From contig OY781066.1 of NCBI GenBank assembly GCA_963676395.1, positions 448,001-512,000 of the forward strand: 64,000 nt of DNA, given 5' to 3'. Of the stretch, positions 34,745 through 52,288 are shown piece after piece. This DNA comes from a bacterium. Lineage in GTDB: Bacteria > Fidelibacterota > Fidelibacteria > Fidelibacterales > Fidelibacteraceae. How positions within the stretch are numbered: the stretch's first letter is position 1; the number at the start of each line of letters is the position of its first letter. The translations under genes and the position numbers were made by a program. The notes beneath the pieces were generated by a model. That model made no database searches and was not told where the DNA came from. It saw nothing but the letters and a program-made list of their open reading frames with translations.

Positions 34745-35938
34745 TTATTCAATAATTTTTGTTACAACACCGGCACCTACGGTACGACCACCTTCGCGAA
34801 TAGCGAAGCGTAGCTCTTCTTCCATAGCGATCGGTACGATAAGTTCAACTTCAGCTTCGATATTATCGCCGGGCATTACCATTTCAACGCCATCAGGAAG
34901 TTTGATCGAACCGGTCACGTCCGTTGTACGGAAGTAAAACTGAGGACGATAGCCATCCATGAACGGAGTATGACGGCCGCCTTCTTCTTTCTTCAGGACG
35001 TAAAACTTAGCCATGAACTTGGTGTGAGGTGTAATGGATTTCGGCGCTGCGATAACCTGTCCGCGACGCAACCATTCTTTGTCAATTCCGCGTAGCAAAA
35101 GACCTGCGTTATCTCCGGCTTCTCCACGATCCAACAATTTGCGGAACATTTCAACGCCTGTTACAACTGTCTTCTTGCCTTCAGGGTGGATACCCAGGAT
35201 CTCAACTTCTTCTCCGACCTTGATCACACCGCGTTCGATTCTTCCGGTACCTACCGTACCACGACCCGTGATTGAAAATACATCTTCAACCGGCATCAGG
35301 AAGGGTTTGTCTACCGCGCGCTGAGGTTCAGGAATATAATTGTCGACCGCTTCCATCAATTCCATGATGCTTTTGGTCTTTTCCGGATCTGTAGGATTGT
35401 TCAATGCTTCAAGTGCTGAACCTTTGATGATCGGAATGTCATCACCGGGGAAATCATATTCGCTTAAGAGTTCGCGAAGTTCCATTTCTACCAGTTCCAA
35501 CAATTCAGGGTCATCTACCATATCAACTTTGTTCATATAAACAACCATTGAAGGAACGTTAACCTGGTGGGCCAACAGAACATGTTCGCGAGTCTGAGGC
35601 ATAGGGCCGTCAGCTGCGGATACAACCAGAATAGCTCCGTCCATCTGTGCTGCTCCGGTGATCATATTTTTAATATAATCGGCATGTCCGGGACAATCAA
35701 CGTGAGCATAGTGTCTACTCTCTGTTTCATATTCAACGTGAGCGGTGGCAATTGTGATACCGCGTTCGCGTTCTTCTGGTGCGTTGTCAATACTATCGAA
35801 CGAACGAACTTCTGCGCCACCTGCGATAGCCAATACTGAAGTAATAGCTGCCGTCAGTGTCGTCTTACCATGATCTACGTGACCGATCGTTCCTACGTTC
35901 ACGTGCGGTTTAGTACGTTCAAATTTTGCTTTAGCCAT
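34745..35938 (-). CDS. tuf: Elongation factor Tu (str-operon copy)
   Basis: [18 protein letters not shown]. Confidence 0.98.
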
Positions 35939-47306: not shown

Positions 47307-47340
47307 AAAACAAAGAGAGCCATCGCGTAGGTGACGGCTC
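47307..47340 (-). terminator. rplL-rpoB intergenic attenuator/terminator
   Basis: GAGCCGTC-8nt-GATGGCTC followed by TCTTTGTTTT; same position as the known rplL-rpoB attenuator. Confidence 0.7.
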
Positions 47341-47374: not shown

Positions 47375-47755
47375 TTACTTAAGTTCTACAGTAGCTCCGA
47401 CTTCTTCTAATTTTGTTTTAATTTCTTCTGCACTGTCTTTAGGCAATTGCTCTTTAACAGCTACAGGAGCGCTTTCAACCAATTCTTTGGCTTCTTTTAG
47501 GCCTAAACCGGTCAATTCGCGAACAACTTTAATGACGTTGATCTTCTTTTCGCCAAAGCTCTGAAGCATCACATCAAATTCAGTTTTTTCTTCTTCAGCG
47601 GCAGCAACGGGTGCAGCACCGGCAGCAGCTACAGCTACGGGAGCGGCGGCTGTTACACCAAATTTTTCTTCGATCTCTTTAATGAGTTCTGAGATTTCCA
47701 GCATGTTTGCTGTTTCCAAGTATGCTAATACATCGGCACGTTTGATATCGGCCAT
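47375..47755 (-). CDS. rplL: 50S ribosomal protein L7/L12
   Basis: [25 protein letters not shown]. Confidence 0.97.
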
Positions 47756-47791
47756 GATAATCCTCCTTTAATTTCTGAGGGTTTTTTTATG

Positions 47792-48319
47792 TTATTGTTT
47801 TGTTTCTTCTAATGATTTCAATAGACCCTGTACATCACGCATAGGTGATTGCAAGCAACCAAGAACCTTCTGCATCGGTGATTGAAGAGCTCCAAGCAAC
47901 ATAGAAAGAAGTACTTCTTTTGAAGGTAGGTCAGCAATCTGATCAACCTTACTTTTGTCGCATAGTTCGCCCTGAAAGATCAATGCCTTAACATCAGGTT
48001 TTTTAAGATCCTTCATTTTCTTTTTGTAATCTTGCAGGATCTTAGCGGGTGCTACGGGATCTTCACCATAAACAAGAGCGGTTGAGCCGGTGAGGAAATC
48101 TTCTTTCTTCACTTCTTCATAACCTAAGTCTTGCAATGCTCGCAGGATAAGAGTGTTCTTAACAACCTGCATCTTGACATCTTTTTCAAAGAGTTCCGAA
48201 CGGAGCTCATTTACTTCTGCCACAGTAAGGCCAAGATAATCTGAAAAGTAAACAGCACCTGCTGCTTGAATCTTTTCTGTTATTTCTTTAACCTGTTCAA
48301 TTTTTTTCGGGGTTGGCAT
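47792..48319 (-). CDS. rplJ: 50S ribosomal protein L10
   Basis: DYLGLTV, VVKNTL, LPSKEVL; ATG 9 nt after AGGAGG. Confidence 0.95.
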   Translation of the reverse strand: MPTPKKIEQVKEITEKIQAAGAVYFSDYLGLTVAEVNELRSELFEKDVKMQVVKNTLILRALQDLGYEEVKKEDFLTGSTALVYGEDPVAPAKILQDYKKKMKDLKKPDVKALIFQGELCDKSKVDQIADLPSKEVLLSMLLGALQSPMQKVLGCLQSPMRDVQGLLKSLEETKQ

Positions 48320-48332
48320 ATTCACAAACCTC

Positions 48333-49025
48333 CTAAGCTAATGCAGATTGTTTATCAATTTTAACACCAGGGCCCTGTGTTGAGGAAAGGGTAATCTTTT
48401 TAAGATAAGTACCTTTCAAGGCCGTGGGTTTTAATTTCATTACCGTACTCATCATCCCTTTTACATTTTCTTCAAGCTGTTCAACTGAAAAAGATGCTTT
48501 ACCAACTAAAACATGGAGTATTCCATATTTGTCAACACGGAAAGAGATCTTACCGGCTTTGGCTTCATTTACCGCCTGAGCAACATCTTGTGTTACCGTA
48601 CCTGTTTTAGGATTAGGCATTAAACCACGTGTACCTAAGGCACGACCCAGTTTTCCAACGTGACGCATCACATCGGGTGTTGCTATACAGACATCAAAAT
48701 CAAACCAACCACCTTCGATTTGTTTGACATATTCTTCCAAACCCGCATAATCTGCACCGGCTTCTTCTGCTTCTTTTACTTTCTCACCTTGAGTTAGTAC
48801 AAGAACACGAACTTTCTTACCGGTTCCATGAGGGAGAATGACTGTACCACGAATATTTTGATCAGCATATCGAGGATCAACACCAAGATTTAGTGTCAAT
48901 TCAACTGATTCGTCGAACTTGGCGTTAGCAGCTTGTTTTATCAAACTTACACCGTCGGCAAGAGCGTATTCACGTGTCTTGTCAACCAGTCCCTCATTTG
49001 CCGAATATCGCTTACTATGATTCAT
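48333..49025 (-). CDS. rplA: 50S ribosomal protein L1
   Basis: KFDESVE, LPHGTGK, GLMPNPKTGTV; start moved to the ATG at 49025. Confidence 0.97.
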   Translation of the reverse strand: MNHSKRYSANEGLVDKTREYALADGVSLIKQAANAKFDESVELTLNLGVDPRYADQNIRGTVILPHGTGKKVRVLVLTQGEKVKEAEEAGADYAGLEEYVKQIEGGWFDFDVCIATPDVMRHVGKLGRALGTRGLMPNPKTGTVTQDVAQAVNEAKAGKISFRVDKYGILHVLVGKASFSVEQLEENVKGMMSTVMKLKPTALKGTYLKKITLSSTQGPGVKIDKQSALA

Positions 49026-49041
49026 TAATTCTTGCCTCCAG

Positions 49042-49467
49042 TTAACCTTCAACCTTTAATCCCATGCTTCGAGCGGTTCCTGCAATCATTCGCGCGGCCT
49101 GTTCGATGGTATGGGCGTTTAAATCTTTCATTTTCAACTTGGCAATTTCTTCAAGATCGGCCTGTGTTACCGTACCAACTTTTTCTTTATTCGATACGCC
49201 AGAACCTTTTTCGATCTTTGCTGCTTTTTTAAGCAAAACGGCTGCAGGGGGTGTCTTTGTAACAAATGTAAAGGACCTATCTGCATATACCGTGATCACT
49301 ACCGGAATGATCAAGCCCATTTGATCTTGGGTCTTAGCATTATAAGCTTTACAGAATTCCATAATATTCACACCGTGCTGACCGAGTGCCGGACCGACGG
49401 GAGGTGACGGGTTTGCCTTACCCGCAGGAAGCTGTAGTTTGATCAATGCTTCTACTTTTTTTGCCAT
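49042..49467 (-). CDS. rplK: 50S ribosomal protein L11
   Basis: [21 protein letters not shown]. Confidence 0.98.
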
Positions 49468-49500
49468 ACTACTTTTACCATTTTTTTGGTTTTATCGTTC

Positions 49501-50028
49501 TTATTTCTCTTTTTCTACTTGAAGGTAGTCCAATTCAACCGGCGTTGAACGCCCGAAAATACTGACCATTACCTTCAACTTGCGCTTTTCTTCATTAACT
49601 TCTTCGACTACACCGGAAAAATCAACAAAGGGACCGTCAACCACCTTAACAGGTTCACCTACATTAAAAGGTGTCGCCATCACTTCGCGTCCGTCTTTCT
49701 TTTCAACTTCGCCAAGAATTCTTGCGACTTCTTTCTCTGTAAGAACCTGGGGAACACCCTTCGAACCGACGAAACTAATTACGCCGGAGATGTTCTCAAC
49801 AAAATATTTGGTTTCCGCAGACACATCCATCTTAATCATAATGTAACCGGGGTAGAAAACCTTTACCCGGGTACGTTTTTTCCCGTCTCGCATTTCCACT
49901 ACGTTTTCAGTGGGAACCAAGACGTTTTCGATGGATTCAGCAAATCCGCAAGCTTCAGCTTCGAACATAATGCGTTCTGCAACCGCTCTTTCTTTTCCGG
50001 ACAATGCTTTCAGGGTATACCATTTCAT
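49501..50028 (-). CDS. nusG: Transcription termination/antitermination factor NusG
   Basis: KWY...YPGYI, KOW DGPF.DF.G, IFGRSTPVEL. Confidence 0.96.
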   Translation of the reverse strand: MKWYTLKALSGKERAVAERIMFEAEACGFAESIENVLVPTENVVEMRDGKKRTRVKVFYPGYIMIKMDVSAETKYFVENISGVISFVGSKGVPQVLTEKEVARILGEVEKKDGREVMATPFNVGEPVKVVDGPFVDFSGVVEEVNEEKRKLKVMVSIFGRSTPVELDYLQVEKEK

Positions 50029-50032
50029 TGTA

Positions 50033-50230
50033 TTACATCCATTCGATTAATTTTGCGACGAGGGTACCAACACCCATGTCAACGATTGCGATGAACAGAG
50101 TGATAAGGATCGAAAAGATCAAAACCACACCCGTTGAGGATCTCAATTCATCCCAAGAAGGCCAATTTACCTTCTTCATTTCATAGCGAACTCCGCTAAA
50201 AAACTCTTTTATTCTGTCAAACAATTTCAT
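50033..50230 (-). CDS. secE: Preprotein translocase SecE
   Basis: EMKKVNWPS plus a single TM segment. Confidence 0.95.
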   Translation of the reverse strand: MKLFDRIKEFFSGVRYEMKKVNWPSWDELRSSTGVVLIFSILITLFIAIVDMGVGTLVAKLIEWM

Positions 50231-50252
50231 TCTTTTGTCCTCGTTTGTCTTG

Positions 50253-50325
50253 CAGGCCAGGAGGGATTCGAACCCCCAACTTGCGGTTTTGGAGACCGCT
50301 GCTCTGCCAGTTGAACTACTGGCCT
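50253..50325 (-). tRNA. tRNA-Trp(CCA)
   Basis: AGGCCAG...CTCCAAA...TTCGAAT...CTGGCCTG cloverleaf; canonical position before secE. Confidence 0.95.
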
Positions 50326-50334
50326 GACACTATT

Positions 50335-50499
50335 TTAGCGTGTTTCTTTATGATTTGTATGCTTTTGGCACCACGGGCAGTACTTTTTATATTCCACGCG
50401 TTGAGGATGTAAGCGTTTATTCTTTGTCGTAGTATAATTACGACGTTTACATTCCTCGCATGCCAAAATGATGTTATTGCGTATTTTTTGTCCTGCCAT
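50335..50499 (-). CDS. rpmG: 50S ribosomal protein L33 (zinc-binding type) with an S10-like N-terminus
   Basis: Not in the ORF track. Hand translation: [54 protein letters not shown]. Confidence 0.95.
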
Positions 50500-50521
50500 T
50501 GTACTCTAGCCTTTAATCTTA

Positions 50522-51715
50522 TTATTCAATAATTTTTGTTACAACACCGGCACCAACTGTACGACCACCTTCACGAATGGCGAAGCGTAGTTCTTCTTCC
50601 ATTGCGATTGGTACGATAAGTTCTACATCAGCTTCAATATTATCGCCGGGCATTACCATCTCTACACCGTCAGGTAACTTAATTGAACCTGTCACGTCTG
50701 TTGTACGGAAGTAGAACTGTGGGCGATATCCATCCATAAATGGAGTGTGACGTCCGCCTTCTTCTTTCTTCAATACGTAGAATTTGGCTTTGAATTTTTT
50801 GTGAGGAGTTATTGATTTAGGTGCTGCGACAACCATTCCGCGACGCAACCATTCTTTATCAATACCACGAAGCAATAAACCAGCATTGTCACCGGCTTCT
50901 CCGCGATCTAACAGCTTACGGAACATTTCCACTCCCGTACATACTGTCTTCTTACCTTCTTCGTCGATACCTACGATCTCTACTTCATCACCTACCGTGA
51001 TAACTCCACGTTCGATTCTTCCGGTTCCTACGGTACCGCGACCTGTAATTGAAAATACATCTTCAACAGGCATCAAGAATGGTTTGTCGATGGCACGTTC
51101 CGGTTCTGCAATATATGAATCTACAGCTTCCATCAATTCTATAATGCTTTTTGTCTTTTCTGCATCATCAGGATTGTTCAAGGCTTCCAAAGCTGAACCT
51201 TTAATGATTGGAATGTCATCACCGGGGAAATCATATTCGCTCAACAATTCGCGTAGTTCCATTTCTACCAGTTCCAACAACTCAGGATCATCAACCATAT
51301 CTACTTTGTTCATATAAACAACGATATAAGGTACGTTAACCTGATGTGCCAATAGAACGTGTTCACGTGTCTGTGGCATAGGACCGTCTGCAGCTGATAC
51401 TACCAAAATCGCACCATCCATCTGGGCTGCTCCGGTGATCATATTTTTAATATAATCGGCATGTCCCGGACAATCAACGTGGGCATAGTGTCTGCTCTCT
51501 GTTTCGTATTCAACGTGAGCGGTGGCAATTGTGATACCACGTTCGCGTTCTTCAGGTGCATTATCAATACTGTCAAAAGAACGAACTTCAGCGCCGCCAG
51601 CTTTTGCCAATACTGTTGTAATTGCAGCTGTCAATGTTGTTTTACCATGATCCACGTGACCTATCGTTCCGACGTTCACGTGGGGTTTAGTACGTTCAAA
51701 TTTTTCTTTAGCCAT
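50522..51715 (-). CDS. tuf: Elongation factor Tu (tRNA-linked copy)
   Basis: Second full-length 397-aa EF-Tu, downstream of tRNA-Thr. Confidence 0.98.
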
Positions 51716-51761
51716 CGTAGTATTCTCCTATAGAGTTTTACTTTAACTTAATTTTCAATTG

Positions 51762-51835
51762 AGCCCTTGACCGGATTTGAACCGGTGACCTCATCCTTAC
51801 CAAGGATGCGCGACTACCGACTGTGCTACAAGGGC
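51762..51835 (-). tRNA. tRNA-Thr(GGT)
   Basis: GCCCTTG...TTGGTAA...TTCAAAT...CAAGGGCT; extra C in the D-stem. Confidence 0.9.
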
Positions 51836-51837
51836 AT

Positions 51838-51876
51838 AAAAAAAGCCCATAACCGAAAACATGCGATTACAGGCTT
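51838..51876 (-). terminator. Intrinsic terminator inside the tRNA cluster
   Basis: 13-bp stem AAGCCTGTAATCG/CGGTTATGGGCTT (3 G-U pairs) and a run of 7 U after GGGC. Confidence 0.8.
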
Positions 51877-51887
51877 AATTAGCTTGC

Positions 51888-51945
51888 GGCGTGTTTTCTG
51901 GTGCATACGAGCTTTACATTTACAAAGCTCTCCCAGGTCTCTGCC
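51888..51945 (-). ncRNA. Candidate structured RNA domain upstream of the terminator (attenuator or sRNA)
   Basis: Nested stems GGC/GCC, CTGG/CCAG and GAGCTTT/AAAGCTC; family not recognised. Confidence 0.4.
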
Positions 51946-51956
51946 AAAATTTCAAG

Positions 51957-52027
51957 AGCGAGTGATGAGAATCGAACTCACATAGTCAGCTTGGAAGGCT
52001 GATGTTCTACCATTGAACTACACTCGC
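51957..52027 (-). tRNA. tRNA-Gly(TCC)
   Basis: GCGAGTG...CTTCCAA...TTCGATT...CACTCGCT. Confidence 0.95.
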
Positions 52028-52068
52028 GGCACGAGTGCCAAGTTCATATGATCTCAACACACGCAATG

Positions 52069-52151
52069 TGGGCCAGGATGGATTTGAACCACCGTAGACT
52101 TCCGTCGTCAGATTTACAGTCTGATGCCATTGACCACTCGGCCACTGACCC
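52069..52151 (-). tRNA. tRNA-Tyr(GTA)
   Basis: GGGTCAG...CTGTAAA, long variable arm, TTCAAAT, CTGGCCCA. Confidence 0.95.
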
Positions 52152-52165
52152 ATTTTATTGTGCGG

Positions 52166-52238
52166 AGCCTCTAGCCGGAGTCGAACCAGCGACCAACGGT
52201 TTACAAAACCGTCGCTCTACCATCTGAGCTATAGAGGC
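52166..52238 (-). tRNA. tRNA-Thr(TGT)
   Basis: GCCTCTA...TTTGTAA...TTCGACT...TAGAGGCT. Confidence 0.95.
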
Positions 52239-52244
52239 TTGTGT

Positions 52245-52288
52245 TTCAAAAAGCCAAGAAATATAAGAAATAATTCGAGATGTGCAAA
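52245..52288 (-). promoter_or_regulatory. Promoter of the tRNA-tuf operon
   Basis: TTGCAC-16nt-TATATT followed by TCTTGGCTTTTTGAA, the same start-site motif as the rrn promoters. Confidence 0.7.

What the first reader, a model, noticed from the sequence alone, without database searches (positions are those of the whole stretch)
51836..51956. Structured RNA with terminator and possible antiterminator inside the tRNA cluster, upstream of thrT-tuf-rpmG-secE-nusG-rplKAJL
Seen: the Gly-Thr spacer is 121 nt, against 14 and 41 nt for the other spacers. On the transcript it reads GGC-AGAGAC-CUGG-GA-GAGCUUUG-UAAAUG-UAAAGCUC-GUAUGCA-CCAG-AAAACAC-GCC, then a 13-bp hairpin with a 7-U run ending 2 nt before tRNA-Thr. 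GAAAACACGC in the first domain can pair with GCAUGUUUUC across the terminator loop (9 of 10), which would disrupt the terminator. A boxA-like GCUCUUGAAA sits at the tRNA-Gly 3' end. I found no convincing promoter between here and tuf. Established: thrU-tyrU-glyT-thrT-tufB is normally co-transcribed, and ribosomal-protein leaders can act by attenuation (B. subtilis L10 and L20 leaders). I do not recognise this element as a known riboswitch or T-box. Inference: an undescribed attenuator uncoupling tRNA output from EF-Tu/ribosomal protein/RNAP gene expression, or an sRNA released by tRNA processing.
Basis: partly seen in the sequence, partly recalled or inferred. Interest (0 to 1): 0.72.

Follow-up and report, generated by a model that had tools for sequence, protein, structure and literature searches.

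The report
L1-sensing attenuator inside a tRNA operon
The long gap between two tRNA genes upstream of the EF-Tu and ribosomal-protein genes holds a conserved RNA switch whose sensor looks like the binding site of ribosomal protein L1, so these bacteria probably use spare L1 to stop transcription of the whole gene block.

Summary
It is conserved in all 20 genomes of its class (35 held) in which the tRNA cluster is assembled.

- **Structure.** Covariation supports the sensor hairpin, the terminator and the antiterminator. The antiterminator overlaps the 3' strand of sensor helix P1.
- **Folding order.** In 20 of 20 sequences the nascent-RNA minimum-energy fold has the antiterminator and not P1. 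Something must therefore lock P1 for termination to happen.
- **Likely effector.** The invariant sensor core (UGG-GA-G[stem]C-G.....A-CCA) has the architecture of the published uL1-binding mRNA consensus, of the E. coli rplK operator and of this genome's own 23S L1-stalk site.
- **Operon context.** Downstream lie tRNA-Thr, tuf, rpmG, tRNA-Trp, secE, nusG, rplK, rplA (L1), rplJ and rplL, with no room for classic L1 or L10 leaders.
- **Sister families.** Two sister families carry the same motif in the Tyr/Gly spacer. Their antiterminator spans tRNA-Gly and masks a terminator before tRNA-Thr.

Best reading (0.6): a uL1-sensing transcription attenuator. It is a new variant of a known kind, because known L1 sites act on translation next to rplK or rplA. 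L1 binding and termination are untested. The boxA-like motif is not conserved.

The parts
52260..52288 (-). Candidate sigma-70-like promoter (TTTGCA-17-TATATT) upstream of the first tRNA of the cluster
   Evidence: Consensus scan, 9 of 12 matches. This is a weak consensus match only. The number of such sites in the region was no higher than in shuffles.
51956..52238 (-). tRNA-Thr(UGU) 52164-52238, tRNA-Tyr(GUA) 52068-52151 and tRNA-Gly(UCC) 51956-52027: the upstream part of the transcription unit
   Evidence: ARAGORN; Rfam tRNA model at 60-74 bits.
51836..51955 (-). The whole 120-nt Gly-Thr spacer, read here as the attenuator
   Evidence: Covariance model R1 scores it at 110 bits. R1 gives E <= 2e-13 in 20 of 35 genomes of the class, once per genome and always in this spacer.
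51898..51936 (-). Sensor domain with L1-site architecture.
- P1 5' strand CUGG: 51933-51936
- Bulge GA: 51931-51932
- P2 hairpin GAGCUUUG..UAAAGCUC: 51909-51930
- 3' internal loop GUAUGCA: 51902-51908
- P1 3' strand CCAG: 51898-51901
   Evidence: - P1 is invariant at 3 of its 4 pairs; P2 has compensatory changes at 5 of 6 pairs.
- The architecture matches the published L1 RNA consensus and the E. coli operator and the genome's own 23S site.
51889..51902 (-). Antiterminator 5' strand, ACC-A-GAAAACA-C-GC. It overlaps the P1 3' strand.
   Evidence: - RNAduplex gives -12.8 kcal/mol here and -8.4 to -14.6 across the 20 sequences.
- Its 10 modelled pairs are 91.6% paired, and 3 of them show compensatory changes.
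- It is present in the nascent minimum-energy fold in 20 of 20 sequences.
51852..51864 (-). Antiterminator 3' strand, GC-A-UGUUUUCGGU. It consists of the last base of the terminator 5' arm, the terminator loop and the first 4 bases of the terminator 3' arm.
   Evidence: Within the genus the loop sequence stays conserved while the terminator stem covaries.
51838..51876 (-). Intrinsic terminator: a 13-bp stem with an 8-nt loop (51843-51876) and a U7 run (51838-51844) ending 2 nt before tRNA-Thr
   Evidence: Terminator scan. 6 of 13 pairs have compensatory changes and 96.5% of cells are paired.
51761..51835 (-). tRNA-Thr(GGU), the first gene downstream of the terminator
47375..51715 (-). Putative regulated block:
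- tuf 50522-51715
- rpmG 50335-50499
- tRNA-Trp 50252-50325
- secE 50033-50230
- nusG 49501-50028
- rplK 49042-49467
- rplA (L1) 48333-49052
- rplJ 47792-48325
- rplL 47375-47755
   Evidence: - Pfam assigns every ORF; ORF coordinates come.
- Gaps between genes are at most 45 nt: nusG-rplK 33 nt, rplA-rplJ 7 nt.
- No minus-strand terminator-like site lies between tuf and rplL.
- Co-transcription is inferred, not shown.
11630..11684 (-). The genome's own 23S rRNA L1-stalk site, GGUGG-GA-GACU..AGUC-AAUCUUGGAAUA-CCACC. It is the presumed competitor for L1.
   Evidence: - The 23S gene was located with RF02541 and its sequence read.
- This site is one of only 10 genome-wide hits of the signature derived from the spacer alignment.

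Best explanation
The Gly-Thr spacer is a transcription attenuator whose sensor is a mimic of the 23S rRNA binding site of ribosomal protein uL1.

**Proposed sequence of events**
1. Transcription starts upstream of tRNA-Thr(UGU). It passes tRNA-Tyr and tRNA-Gly and enters the spacer.
2. The sensor forms first: P1 CUGG/CCAG, a GA bulge, hairpin P2 and a 7-nt 3' loop.
3. On naked RNA, the 3' strand of P1 and the A-rich run after it (ACCAGAAAACA) leave P1. They pair with the terminator loop and the start of the terminator 3' arm (UGUUUUCGGU).
4. This antiterminator keeps the 13-bp terminator from forming in time. RNA polymerase reads on into tRNA-Thr(GGU), tuf, rpmG, tRNA-Trp, secE, nusG, rplK, rplA, rplJ and rplL, and possibly rpoBC.
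5. When uL1 (encoded by rplA) exceeds free 23S rRNA, it binds P1/GA/P2 and locks CCAG into P1. The antiterminator cannot form, the terminator folds, and transcription stops 2 nt before tRNA-Thr.

**Shown here:** the three conserved, covarying, mutually exclusive helices, their overlap, the order in which they fold, and the match to the L1 motif.

**Inferred:** that uL1 is the effector, that termination happens, and that rplA is co-transcribed.
For: **1. Conservation.** The element was found in 20 of 20 class genomes that have the tRNA cluster (20 of the 35 held). It always lies in the Gly-Thr spacer, across 5 genera in 2 families.

**2. Structure.**
- 96.6% of cells are paired and 11 of 23 pairs have compensatory changes.
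- P2 covaries at 5 of 6 pairs, while the P1 and bulge letters are invariant. That pattern fits a site read by a protein.

**3. Switch.**
- The antiterminator's 10 modelled pairs are 91.6% paired, with 3 compensatory; the whole modelled structure (P2 plus antiterminator) is at most 48% paired in slid controls.
- Its duplex energy is -8.4 to -14.6 kcal/mol. That beats at least 94% of shuffles in each of the 20 sequences.
- The nascent-RNA minimum-energy fold has the antiterminator and no P1 in 20 of 20 sequences. The full-length fold has the terminator in 17 of 20.

**4. L1 identity.**
- The published L1 RNA consensus, GUGG-GA-Gggu..gaccC-GUUAaA-CCAC, and the E. coli operator, GGG-GA-GCCUC..GAGGC-GUUAUUA-CCC, have the same architecture.
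- Both the E. coli operator and this spacer have a 7-nt 3' loop that starts with G and ends with A.
- A signature built only from the spacer's invariant columns hits 10 places in the 2.34-Mb genome (2-5 in shuffles). One of them is the true 23S L1-stalk site.
- A looser descriptor hits the 9.2-kb E. coli tufB-rplL locus exactly once, at the known L1 operator, where 0.2 hits are expected by chance.

**5. Context.**
- rplA lies downstream in a tightly packed block.
- The nusG-rplK gap (33 nt) and the rplA-rplJ gap (7 nt) leave no room for the usual leaders.
- No other minus-strand terminator-like site lies before rplL.

**6. Independent replicate.**
- Families f5 and f12 carry GGG-GA-GGCAAY..RUUGCU-GUNNGNA-CCC in the Tyr-Gly spacer (8 of 8 loci).
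- They also have a terminator in the Gly-Thr spacer.
- A leader-trailer helix across tRNA-Gly pairs the 5' half of the motif with the terminator 5' arm.
- Both alternative folds are 94.3% paired in 15 sequences.
Against: - No binding, termination or expression data exist. The only RNA evidence is metatranscriptome contigs of relatives that bridge tRNA-Gly, the spacer and tRNA-Thr (and the start of tuf). These may be DNA carry-over, and at most they show read-through.
- The L1 motif carries little information: the descriptor hits 51 places in this genome.
- Covariance model R2, built from the sensor alone, found neither the genome's own 23S site nor the E. coli operator at E <= 10.
- The site lies about 2.4 kb upstream of rplK, unlike every described L1 site.
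- Co-transcription through two tRNAs and five genes is inferred from spacing alone.
- At equilibrium the terminator fold wins (-32 kcal/mol), so the antiterminator must act kinetically.
- Promoters that do not fit the sigma-70 consensus would have been missed.
- The A2 and A6 pair counts come from alignments fitted to the models, so they lean towards the tested structures.
- Most genomes used are metagenome bins.
Confidence: 0.6

Rival explanations
1. It is a real attenuator with the same three helices, but the P1/P2 domain is read by something other than uL1. Candidates are another protein of the block (L11, L10/L12, NusG, EF-Tu), a small ligand, or only polymerase speed, pausing or ppGpp.
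For: - The switch anatomy does not depend on which effector acts.
- The L1-type descriptor is degenerate, with 51 hits per genome.
- Sensor-only model R2 did not cross-detect known L1 sites.
- The element precedes many genes, not only rplA.
Against: - The invariant letters are exactly those of the published L1 consensus: GG, GA, the G-C closing pair, the G..A 7-nt loop and CC.
- The spacer-derived signature picks out the 23S L1 site.
- No Rfam family matches the spacer, including the L10, L20 and riboswitch models, even at E <= 10.
- A 39-nt hairpin with one internal loop is small for a metabolite pocket.
Confidence: 0.15
2. The hairpin and U run form a constitutive terminator that ends a three-tRNA unit, while tRNA-Thr and tuf have their own unrecognised promoter. 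The conserved domain is then part of a stable spacer RNA released by tRNA processing. Such an RNA could act as an L1 sponge or chaperone site, a trans-acting sRNA, or an RNase processing signal.
For: - A stable 3' hairpin and flanking tRNAs would release a discrete RNA of about 118 nt.
- At equilibrium the terminator fold is favoured.
- A second tuf copy, 94% identical, lies at window 34748-35938, so this operon need not supply all EF-Tu.
- Promoter types of this phylum are unknown.
Against: - Only 2 nt separate the U run from tRNA-Thr, and only 45 nt separate tRNA-Thr from tuf. No promoter-like site was found there.
- Terminator stems covary, which argues for an RNA function rather than a promoter function.
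- The conserved, covarying antiterminator is unexplained by a constitutive stop, and so is its counterpart in f5/f12.
- RNA-library contigs of relatives bridge the terminator (weak evidence).
Confidence: 0.15
3. The spacer is a chance fold or a remnant, such as a decayed tRNA, with no function beyond spacing.
For: The single-sequence folding z-score is only -1.74.
Against: - The element is conserved across the class, with invariant core letters inside otherwise diverged spacers (mean column identity 70%).
- Compensatory changes occur in three helices.
- ARAGORN and Rfam find no tRNA-like match in the spacer.
Confidence: 0.02

Closest known systems
uL1-interacting mRNA motif of rplK/rplA leaders (E. 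coli L11-operon operator; Fu et al. 2013, PMC3616713)
   Same: The architecture is the same:
- a helix ending in GG/CC
- a 2-nt GA bulge
- a second stem closed by G-C
- a 6-7-nt 3' loop starting with G and ending with A

The logic is the same too: mimicry of the 23S L1 site gives feedback by excess L1.
   Different: - Described sites lie directly before rplK or rplA and block translation.
- This one lies in a tRNA-tRNA spacer about 2.4 kb upstream of rplK, next to no ribosome-binding site.
- It is wired to a terminator and antiterminator.
- It would also govern tRNA-Thr, tuf, rpmG, tRNA-Trp, secE, nusG and rplJL.
23S rRNA L1-stalk site (helices 76-78; the helix numbers come from the review read and from recall)
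   Same: This genome's 23S reads GGUGG-GA-GACU..AGUC-..A-CCACC. The spacer reads CCUGG-GA-GAGC..GCUC-..A-CCAG.
   Different: - The rRNA site has a 35-nt second helix and a 12-nt 3' loop.
- The spacer has a 14-23-nt hairpin and a 7-nt loop, as mRNA operators do.
Ribosomal-protein transcription attenuators of Bacillus subtilis: the L20 infC leader (PMC1865079, abstract seen) and the L10(L12)4 rplJL leader (named in the review passage; its mechanism is recalled)
   Same: A ribosomal protein binds a leader RNA and favours an intrinsic terminator over an antiterminator.
   Different: - The proteins and RNA folds differ. Rfam's L10 and L20 leader models do not match the spacer.
- Those leaders are 5' UTRs of mRNAs, not spacers inside a tRNA cluster.
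E. coli thrU-tyrU-glyT-thrT-tufB operon
   Same: The gene order Thr-Tyr-Gly-Thr-tuf-secE-nusG-rplKAJL is the same.
   Different: - In E. coli the glyT-thrT spacer is 6 nt and holds no structure.
- The E. coli L1 operator lies in the 158-nt nusG-rplK gap.
- Here that gap is 33 nt, and the motif lies in the Gly-Thr spacer.

Membership tests
uL1-interacting RNA (Fu et al. 2013 L1RNA alignment) | Outer helix whose two inner pairs are G-C (5' ..GG / CC.. 3') | tested here: met
   G21-C55 and G22-C54 (alignment A2 columns) are G-C in 20 of 20 sequences; U20-A56 is U-A in 20 of 20. The published consensus has <<<< GUGG ... CCAC.
uL1-interacting RNA (Fu et al. 2013 L1RNA alignment) | Two-nucleotide 5' bulge GA between the helices | tested here: met
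   GA in 19 of 20 sequences; AA in one (L041).
uL1-interacting RNA (Fu et al. 2013 L1RNA alignment) | Second stem closed by a G-C pair directly after the bulge, with the stem otherwise free to vary | tested here: met
   The closing pair is G-C in 20 of 20 sequences. The other 5 modelled pairs all show compensatory changes.
uL1-interacting RNA (Fu et al. 2013 L1RNA alignment) | Asymmetric 3' internal loop of about 6-7 nt that starts with G and ends with an unpaired A | tested here: met
   The loop is 7 nt in 19 of 20 sequences and 5 nt in L051. The first base is G in 17 of 20 (A in the three g3 sequences). The last base is A in 20 of 20. E. coli has GUUAUUA.
uL1-interacting RNA (Fu et al. 2013 L1RNA alignment) | Lies directly upstream of rplK or rplA and overlaps or abuts their translation start | tested here: not met
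   It lies between tRNA-Gly and tRNA-Thr, 2431 nt upstream of the rplK start. The nusG-rplK gap is 33 nt and holds no motif.
uL1-interacting RNA (Fu et al. 2013 L1RNA alignment) | Binds uL1 with a specificity that is lost when the GG core is mutated | not testable with these tools
   This needs filter binding or EMSA. The complex predictor on hand takes protein chains only.
uL1-interacting RNA (Fu et al. 2013 L1RNA alignment) | Detected by a profile that also detects accepted members | tested here: inconclusive
   - Sensor-only model R2 found neither the E. coli operator nor the genome's own 23S site at E <= 10.
- A hand-written descriptor finds the spacer domain in 19 of 20 loci, the E. coli operator (the only hit in 9.2 kb) and the genome's own 23S site.
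- Rfam 15 has no model that detects the E. coli operator.
Terminator/antiterminator attenuator | Intrinsic terminator: a G+C-containing hairpin followed by a U run, upstream of the regulated genes | tested here: met
   A 13-bp stem and a U7 run. The stem is 96.5% paired and 6 of 13 pairs are compensatory.
Terminator/antiterminator attenuator | A conserved alternative helix that excludes the terminator | tested here: met
   It crosses the terminator pairs, so the two folds cannot coexist.
Terminator/antiterminator attenuator | Read-through changes with an effector | not testable with these tools
   The only data are Logan contigs of metatranscriptomes, which cannot show 3' ends or RNA levels.
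rrn-type boxA antitermination site | A conserved boxA sequence in relatives | tested here: not met
   The GCUCUUGAAA string spans the tRNA-Gly 3' end. The trailer part differs in relatives.
Any Rfam family (riboswitch, T-box, L10, L20 and other leaders) | A covariance-model match | tested here: not met
   The spacer gets no match at gathering score or at E <= 10.

The most novel reading that the evidence does not exclude
In this phylum (record titles of same-genus contigs read Candidatus Neomarinimicrobiota or Fidelibacterota), uL1 would be the master feedback signal for a super-operon that starts with tRNAs.
- The L1-site mimic has been built into the Thr-Tyr-Gly-Thr tRNA cluster at three different spacers in different families.
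- In two architectures it drives transcription attenuation upstream of tRNA-Thr, tuf, rpmG, secE, nusG, rplKAJL and possibly rpoBC.
- In one architecture a complete tRNA-Gly sits inside the antiterminator loop. Folding or processing of that tRNA could then feed into the decision.
Probability: 0.4. Interest if true: 0.78.

Novelty: new variant of a known kind. Interest (0 to 1): 0.66.

Why it matters
Autoregulation by uL1 is a textbook case of translational feedback at rplK or rplA. If this reading holds, it adds three things.

- **Mechanism.** The same small rRNA mimic can be rewired to control transcription instead of translation.
- **Position.** A regulatory switch can sit inside a tRNA cluster. 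In sister families it can even wrap around a tRNA.
- **Regulon.** One ribosomal protein would gate a tRNA, an EF-Tu copy, L33, SecE, NusG, L11, L1, L10 and L7/L12 together. This would tie several parts of the translation and transcription machinery to the supply of free 23S rRNA.

It also gives a concrete, cheap test system for a phylum with almost no experimental genetics: a 120-nt RNA and one protein. Finally, it shows that missing classic leaders in compact ribosomal-protein clusters can mean relocated regulation, not lost regulation.

Tried and rejected
- **Rfam.** Nothing matched the spacer at gathering score or at E <= 10. This says nothing about L1, because Rfam 15 also fails to detect the E. 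coli L1 operator.
- **Sensor-only model R2.** It did not find the genome's own 23S L1 site or the E. coli operator. The model is over-fitted to CUGG..CCAG and a short hairpin. I count this as inconclusive.
- **Weak R1 hits.** G004:C129, G011:C86, three g15 genomes and G063 turned out to be ordinary terminators at gene ends without the UGGGAG..ACCAG core. Two further weak hits, L063 and L064, were not examined.
- **Other genome hits of the strict signature.** The one at genome 1925810-1925838 lies antisense inside a 486-aa reading frame and is taken as chance. The other seven were not examined.
- **Leader peptide.** The AUG in the 3' loop is present in only 8 of 20 sequences. Rejected.
- **boxA.** Not conserved.
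- **Promoter inside the spacer.** There is no sigma-70-like site, and the conserved letters are explained by helices. Other promoter types were not covered.
- **Cognate versus non-cognate antiterminator energies between genera.** The matrix was not cleanly diagonal, because all share CCAG/CUGG. I did not use it.
- **Expression data.**
  - No RNA run holds more than 0.17 of the sampled words, and all runs are kept as contigs.
  - Laying four runs gave only bridging contigs from relatives.
  - No 3' ends or RNA levels can be read from them.
- **L1 sites at nusG-rplK or rplK-rplA in five other families.** Those junctions are at most about 15 nt, and the loose descriptor found no convincing motif there.
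- **Earlier findings of this scan.** Nothing was on record by place, by words or by sequence.
- **Literature.** Five searches found no description of an L1-dependent attenuator or of an L1 site upstream of tuf or in a tRNA spacer.
  - For Fu et al. 2013 I read passages of the main text and parts 1, 29 and 36 of 78 of supplement 3.
  - Parts 30-35 hold the rest of the L1 alignment. I did not read them, so a stray instance of this element there cannot be excluded.
Full report
**1. What is there**

On the minus strand the window carries these genes in order:
- tRNA-Thr(UGU), tRNA-Tyr and tRNA-Gly(UCC)
- a 120-nt spacer (51836-51955)
- tRNA-Thr(GGU)
- tuf, rpmG, tRNA-Trp, secE, nusG, rplK, rplA, rplJ, rplL and rpoB

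The other tRNA spacers are 12-14 and 40-41 nt. The downstream genes are packed tightly: 33 nt separate nusG from rplK and 7 nt separate rplA from rplJ. The usual L1 and L10 leaders therefore have no room.

It has an outer GGC/GCC helix, then P1 CUGG/CCAG, a GA bulge, an 8-bp hairpin P2 and a 7-nt 3' loop. A 13-bp hairpin follows, with a U7 run that ends 2 nt before tRNA-Thr.

On its own the fold is unremarkable: z = -1.74, and 10 of 200 shuffles fold as well. Rfam has nothing for the spacer, even at E <= 10.

**2. Conservation**

A BLAST search with the tRNA cluster against 41 related genomes found the spacer at similar length in:
- 9 same-genus genomes (112-120 nt)
- 3 same-family genomes (104-120 nt)
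- 2 same-order genomes (104-108 nt)

Other families of the phylum have 3-54 nt spacers or unrelated long ones.

Covariance model R1, built from 14 spacers, gave strong matches (E <= 2e-13) in 20 of the 35 genomes held for the class. The class consists of a single order. There is one match per genome, always between tRNA-Gly and tRNA-Thr.

The 15 genomes without a match are fragmented bins in which the full-length cluster match seen in the other 20 was not found. For the six of them complete enough to be re-searched, no cluster match was found at E <= 1e-15. The element is thus present in 20 of 20 genomes where the locus can be seen.

Among 116 genomes of other classes, only six weak hits appeared. 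The four I examined are plain terminators at gene ends.

**3. Structure counts**

On the model-fitted alignment of the 20 sequences (A2), I counted the following:

| Measure | Value |
|---|---|
| Cells paired | 96.6% |
| Cells paired in shuffles | 87.8% |
| Cells paired in slid controls | at most 48% |
| Pairs with compensatory changes | 11 of 23 |
| P2 pairs that covary | 5 of 6 |
| Terminator pairs that covary | 6 of 13 |
| P1 pairs that never vary | 3 of 4 |

RNAalifold predicts the same helices on its own.

The letters that never change are UGG, (G)A, the G and C that close P2, the A that ends the 3' loop, and CCAG. A stem that is free to vary, flanked by frozen single-stranded and helix-end letters, is what a protein-read site looks like.

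**4. The switch**

In the window, ACC-A-GAAAACA-C-GC (51889-51902) pairs with GC-A-UGUUUUCGGU (51852-51864). That is 12 pairs at -12.8 kcal/mol.

The 5' strand includes the 3' strand of P1. The 3' strand consists of the terminator loop, the last base of the terminator 5' arm and the first four bases of the terminator 3' arm. The helix crosses the terminator pairs, so the two folds exclude each other.

The pairing changes in step across genera, read directly:

| Genus | 5' strand | 3' strand |
|---|---|---|
| g1 | CC-A-GAAAACA | UGUUUUC-GG |
| g2 | ACCAGAAA | UUUCUGGU |
| g3 | CCAGGAAACA | UGUUUCUUG |
| g5 | ACCAGACGCAU | AUGCUUCUGGU |
| g4 | GACC-A-GGAC | GUCC-GGUC |

Further counts:
- All 20 sequences have a duplex of -8.4 to -14.6 kcal/mol. 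At most 6.2% of shuffles reach the observed energy in any sequence, and at most 5% in 19 of 20.
- On an alignment fitted to this helix (R3 and A6), its 10 pairs are 91.6% paired and 3 are compensatory. The whole modelled structure (P2 plus antiterminator) is at most 48% paired in slid controls. The fit biases this count towards the structure.
- Folding each RNA only up to the end of the antiterminator puts the antiterminator in the minimum-energy structure and leaves P1 out in 20 of 20 sequences.
- The full-length fold has the terminator in 17 of 20 sequences.

So naked RNA should read through by kinetics, and termination needs something that holds P1 shut.

**5. What holds P1 shut**

The frozen core has the anatomy of the uL1 binding site. 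Four observations support this.

- **Own 23S.** This genome's 23S L1-stalk region reads GGUGG-GA-GACU..AGUC-AAUCUUGGAAUA-CCACC. The spacer reads CCUGG-GA-GAGC..GCUC-GUAUGCA-CCAG.
- **Published consensus.**
  - The L1-interacting mRNA alignment of Fu et al. 2013 (PMC3616713, supplement 3; I read parts 29 and 36) has the consensus GUGG-GA-Gggu..gaccC-GUUAaA-CCAC, with structure <<<<--<<<..>>>------>>>>.
  - The E. coli operator in that alignment reads GGG-GA-GCCUC-UCA-GAGGC-GUUAUUA-CCC.
  - The main text describes a stem with an internal bulge holding a possible G-A pair and an unpaired A, with nanomolar binding that is lost after two G-to-A changes.
- **Spacer-derived signature.** It was built only from the spacer's invariant columns. 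It hits 10 places in the whole 2.34-Mb genome, against 2-5 in ten shuffles. Two of the 10 are the spacer and the true 23S L1 site.
- **Looser descriptor.**
  - It hits the 9.2-kb E. coli tufB-rplL stretch once, exactly at the known operator before rplK, where 0.2 hits are expected by chance.
  - It hits the spacer domain in 19 of 20 loci; the exception has GGAAG.
  - It also hits 51 places in this genome, so the motif alone is weak evidence.

Against this reading, a covariance model of the sensor alone (R2) found neither the 23S site nor the E. coli operator at E <= 10. I put that down to a narrow training set, but it is a failed cross-check.

Rfam's silence carries no weight here, because Rfam 15 does not detect the E. 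coli operator either.

**6. Mechanism proposed**

- When uL1 is scarce, because it is captured by new 23S rRNA, P1 gives way. The antiterminator forms as soon as the terminator loop emerges, and polymerase continues into tRNA-Thr(GGU), tuf, rpmG, tRNA-Trp, secE, nusG, rplK, rplA, rplJ and rplL.
- When uL1 is in excess, it clamps P1/GA/P2. CCAG is then unavailable, the terminator folds and the transcript ends before tRNA-Thr.
- The direction of the response (binding leads to termination) follows from which strands overlap, and that overlap is shown.
- That uL1 binds, that the hairpin terminates, and that rplA is on the same transcript are all inferred.

Support for one transcription unit is indirect:
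- Gaps between genes are at most 45 nt.
- No minus-strand terminator-like site lies between the spacer and rplL. One hairpin lies between rplL and rpoB at 47317-47340.
- No good promoter match was found.
- In two marine-sediment metatranscriptome runs of one study, contigs from relatives span tRNA-Gly, the spacer and tRNA-Thr (51751-52027), and the tuf start through to tRNA-Gly (51686-52012). These contigs cannot rule out DNA carry-over and show no RNA ends.

A second tuf copy, 94% identical, lies at window 34748-35938. EF-Tu supply therefore does not hang on this operon alone.

**7. A second architecture in sister families**

I extracted the tRNA cluster from 55 genomes of 21 families. Before counting I dropped two loci that had hit a different tRNA-Gly (L107, L110) and one that was cut by a contig end (L020).

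An L1-type motif occurs in a cluster spacer in 24 of the 55. The descriptor's background rate of 0.005 per 100 nt predicts about one chance hit.

| Families | Spacer | Loci with the motif |
|---|---|---|
| f1, f2 (this class) | Gly-Thr | 5 of 5 representatives |
| f5 | Tyr-Gly | 6 of 6 |
| f12 | Tyr-Gly | 2 of 2 |
| f9 | Thr-Tyr | 8 of 8 |
| f14 | Thr-Tyr | 3 of 4 |
| Remaining families | any cluster spacer | none; one doubtful hit lies in an f10 leader |

In f5 and f12 the motif GGG-GA-GGCAAY..RUUGCU-GUNNGNA-CCC abuts tRNA-Gly, and the short Gly-Thr spacer carries GCCCC..GGGGC followed by a U run. The two spacers are complementary across the tRNA, with duplex energies of -21 to -28 kcal/mol:
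- GCUGUC pairs with GACAGY next to the tRNA.
- GGCAAUUC pairs with GAAUUGCC. This takes the 5' half of the L1 motif and the 5' arm of the terminator.

On 15 sequences from 6 genera (A5, a plain MAFFT alignment):
- The cross-tRNA fold is 94.3% paired, with 4 compensatory pairs; slid controls reach at most 47%.
- The L1-fold-plus-terminator alternative is also 94.3% paired.

This is the same three-way logic built differently, with a whole tRNA in the antiterminator loop. It is the strongest indirect support for the reading of the window's element.

The f9/f14 variant has UCA in place of CCA. It sits inside a larger structure of 155-200 nt, and I saw no obvious terminator. I did not work it out.

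**8. Comparison with what is known**

- Described uL1 sites precede rplK, rplA or both, and act on translation. Sources: Fu et al. 2013, passages read; a 2024 review, PMC10931766, section 3.1 passages read.
- Ribosomal-protein attenuators are known for L20 in B. subtilis (PMC1865079, abstract seen) and for L10(L12)4 (named; its mechanism is recalled). These use other folds.
- In E. coli the same tRNA-tufB cluster has a 6-nt glyT-thrT spacer, and the L1 operator lies in the 158-nt nusG-rplK gap.
- Five full-text searches found no report of an L1-dependent attenuator, nor of an L1 site in a tRNA spacer or upstream of tuf. The library lacks most subscription journals, and I did not read parts 30-35 of the L1 alignment.
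- On sensor anatomy the element passes four of four tests for the L1-RNA family. It fails on genomic position and on the implied mode of action. Binding could not be tested.
- I file it as a new variant of a known kind.

**9. Taxon**

Seven of eleven exact matches to a 19-base piece of the terminator in the species-representative genome collection are this element. Their record titles read Candidatus Neomarinimicrobiota (4), Fidelibacterota (1) or uncultured bacterium (2). The other four matches have no tRNAs and are chance hits.

**10. Verdict**

| Claim | Estimate |
|---|---|
| Observation | confirmed |
| Conserved terminator/antiterminator switch | about 0.8 |
| uL1 as its effector, giving the full statement | 0.6 |

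The boxA idea is rejected, and the released-sRNA idea remains a minor rival. Interest is moderately high. The sensor is a known motif, but its coupling to transcription termination, its place inside a tRNA operon and the breadth of the implied regulon are new. The tRNA-embracing version in sister families is also new. All of this can be tested directly with one RNA and one protein.

Noticed in passing
L016, L019, L021, L071-L075, L123-L129 (families f5 and f12): the Tyr-Gly and Gly-Thr spacers around tRNA-Gly: A second attenuator architecture. An L1-type motif abuts the 5' end of tRNA-Gly, and a terminator lies in the Gly-Thr spacer. A conserved leader-trailer helix across the whole tRNA pairs the 5' half of the motif with the terminator 5' arm. 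Both alternative folds are 94.3% paired in 15 sequences.
   Followed up: partly
L023, L026, L079-L084 (f9), L086-L088 (f14) and, by eye, L024 (f6): the Thr(UGU)-Tyr spacer, 91-201 nt: A third placement of a GGGAG motif, UGG-GA-GAGAGU..ACUUUC-GYUAAG-UCA. It has a G-U pair where the L1 consensus has G-C, and it sits inside a larger conserved structure. I saw no clear terminator, and its function is not worked out.
   Followed up: partly
L027 and L028 (family f8): Gly-Thr spacer of 127-135 nt: A different conserved element at the same position as the window's attenuator. It includes the hairpin GCAUGACU..AGUCAUGC and no GGGAG motif.
   Followed up: no
L017, L022, L076 (family f3): Gly-Thr spacers of 472-627 nt: Very long spacers between tRNA-Gly and tRNA-Thr. 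Their content was not examined. L017 also has a 108-nt Tyr-Gly spacer with a helix/bulge/helix of L1-like shape, but with a UUA bulge.
   Followed up: no
window 34748-35938, minus strand: A second tuf gene, 94% identical in protein to the one downstream of the attenuator. Its neighbours were not examined.
   Followed up: no
window 47317-47340, minus strand: A terminator-like 8-bp hairpin followed by a U-rich tail in the 96-nt rplL-rpoB gap. This is where E. coli has its rplL-rpoB attenuator (that comparison is recalled).
   Followed up: no
window 51945-51955 and the same position in relatives: A short UUG(G/A) motif about 7-10 nt after tRNA-Gly is conserved across the class and recurs after tRNA-Gly in other families (UUUGAAA). 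It may be a 3'-processing signal.
   Followed up: no
genome C1:1925810-1925838, plus strand (outside the window): This is one of the eight other genome hits of the strict L1-type signature (10 hits in all, counting the spacer and the 23S site), UUGG-GA-GCUUU..GAAGC-UCAAA-CCAA. It lies antisense inside a 486-aa reading frame and is taken as chance. The other seven hits were not examined.
   Followed up: partly
window 10917-13894, minus strand: The window also holds the genome's only detected 23S rRNA gene (RF02541, 2884 bits). The natural L1 site and its proposed mimic therefore lie 40 kb apart.
   Followed up: yes
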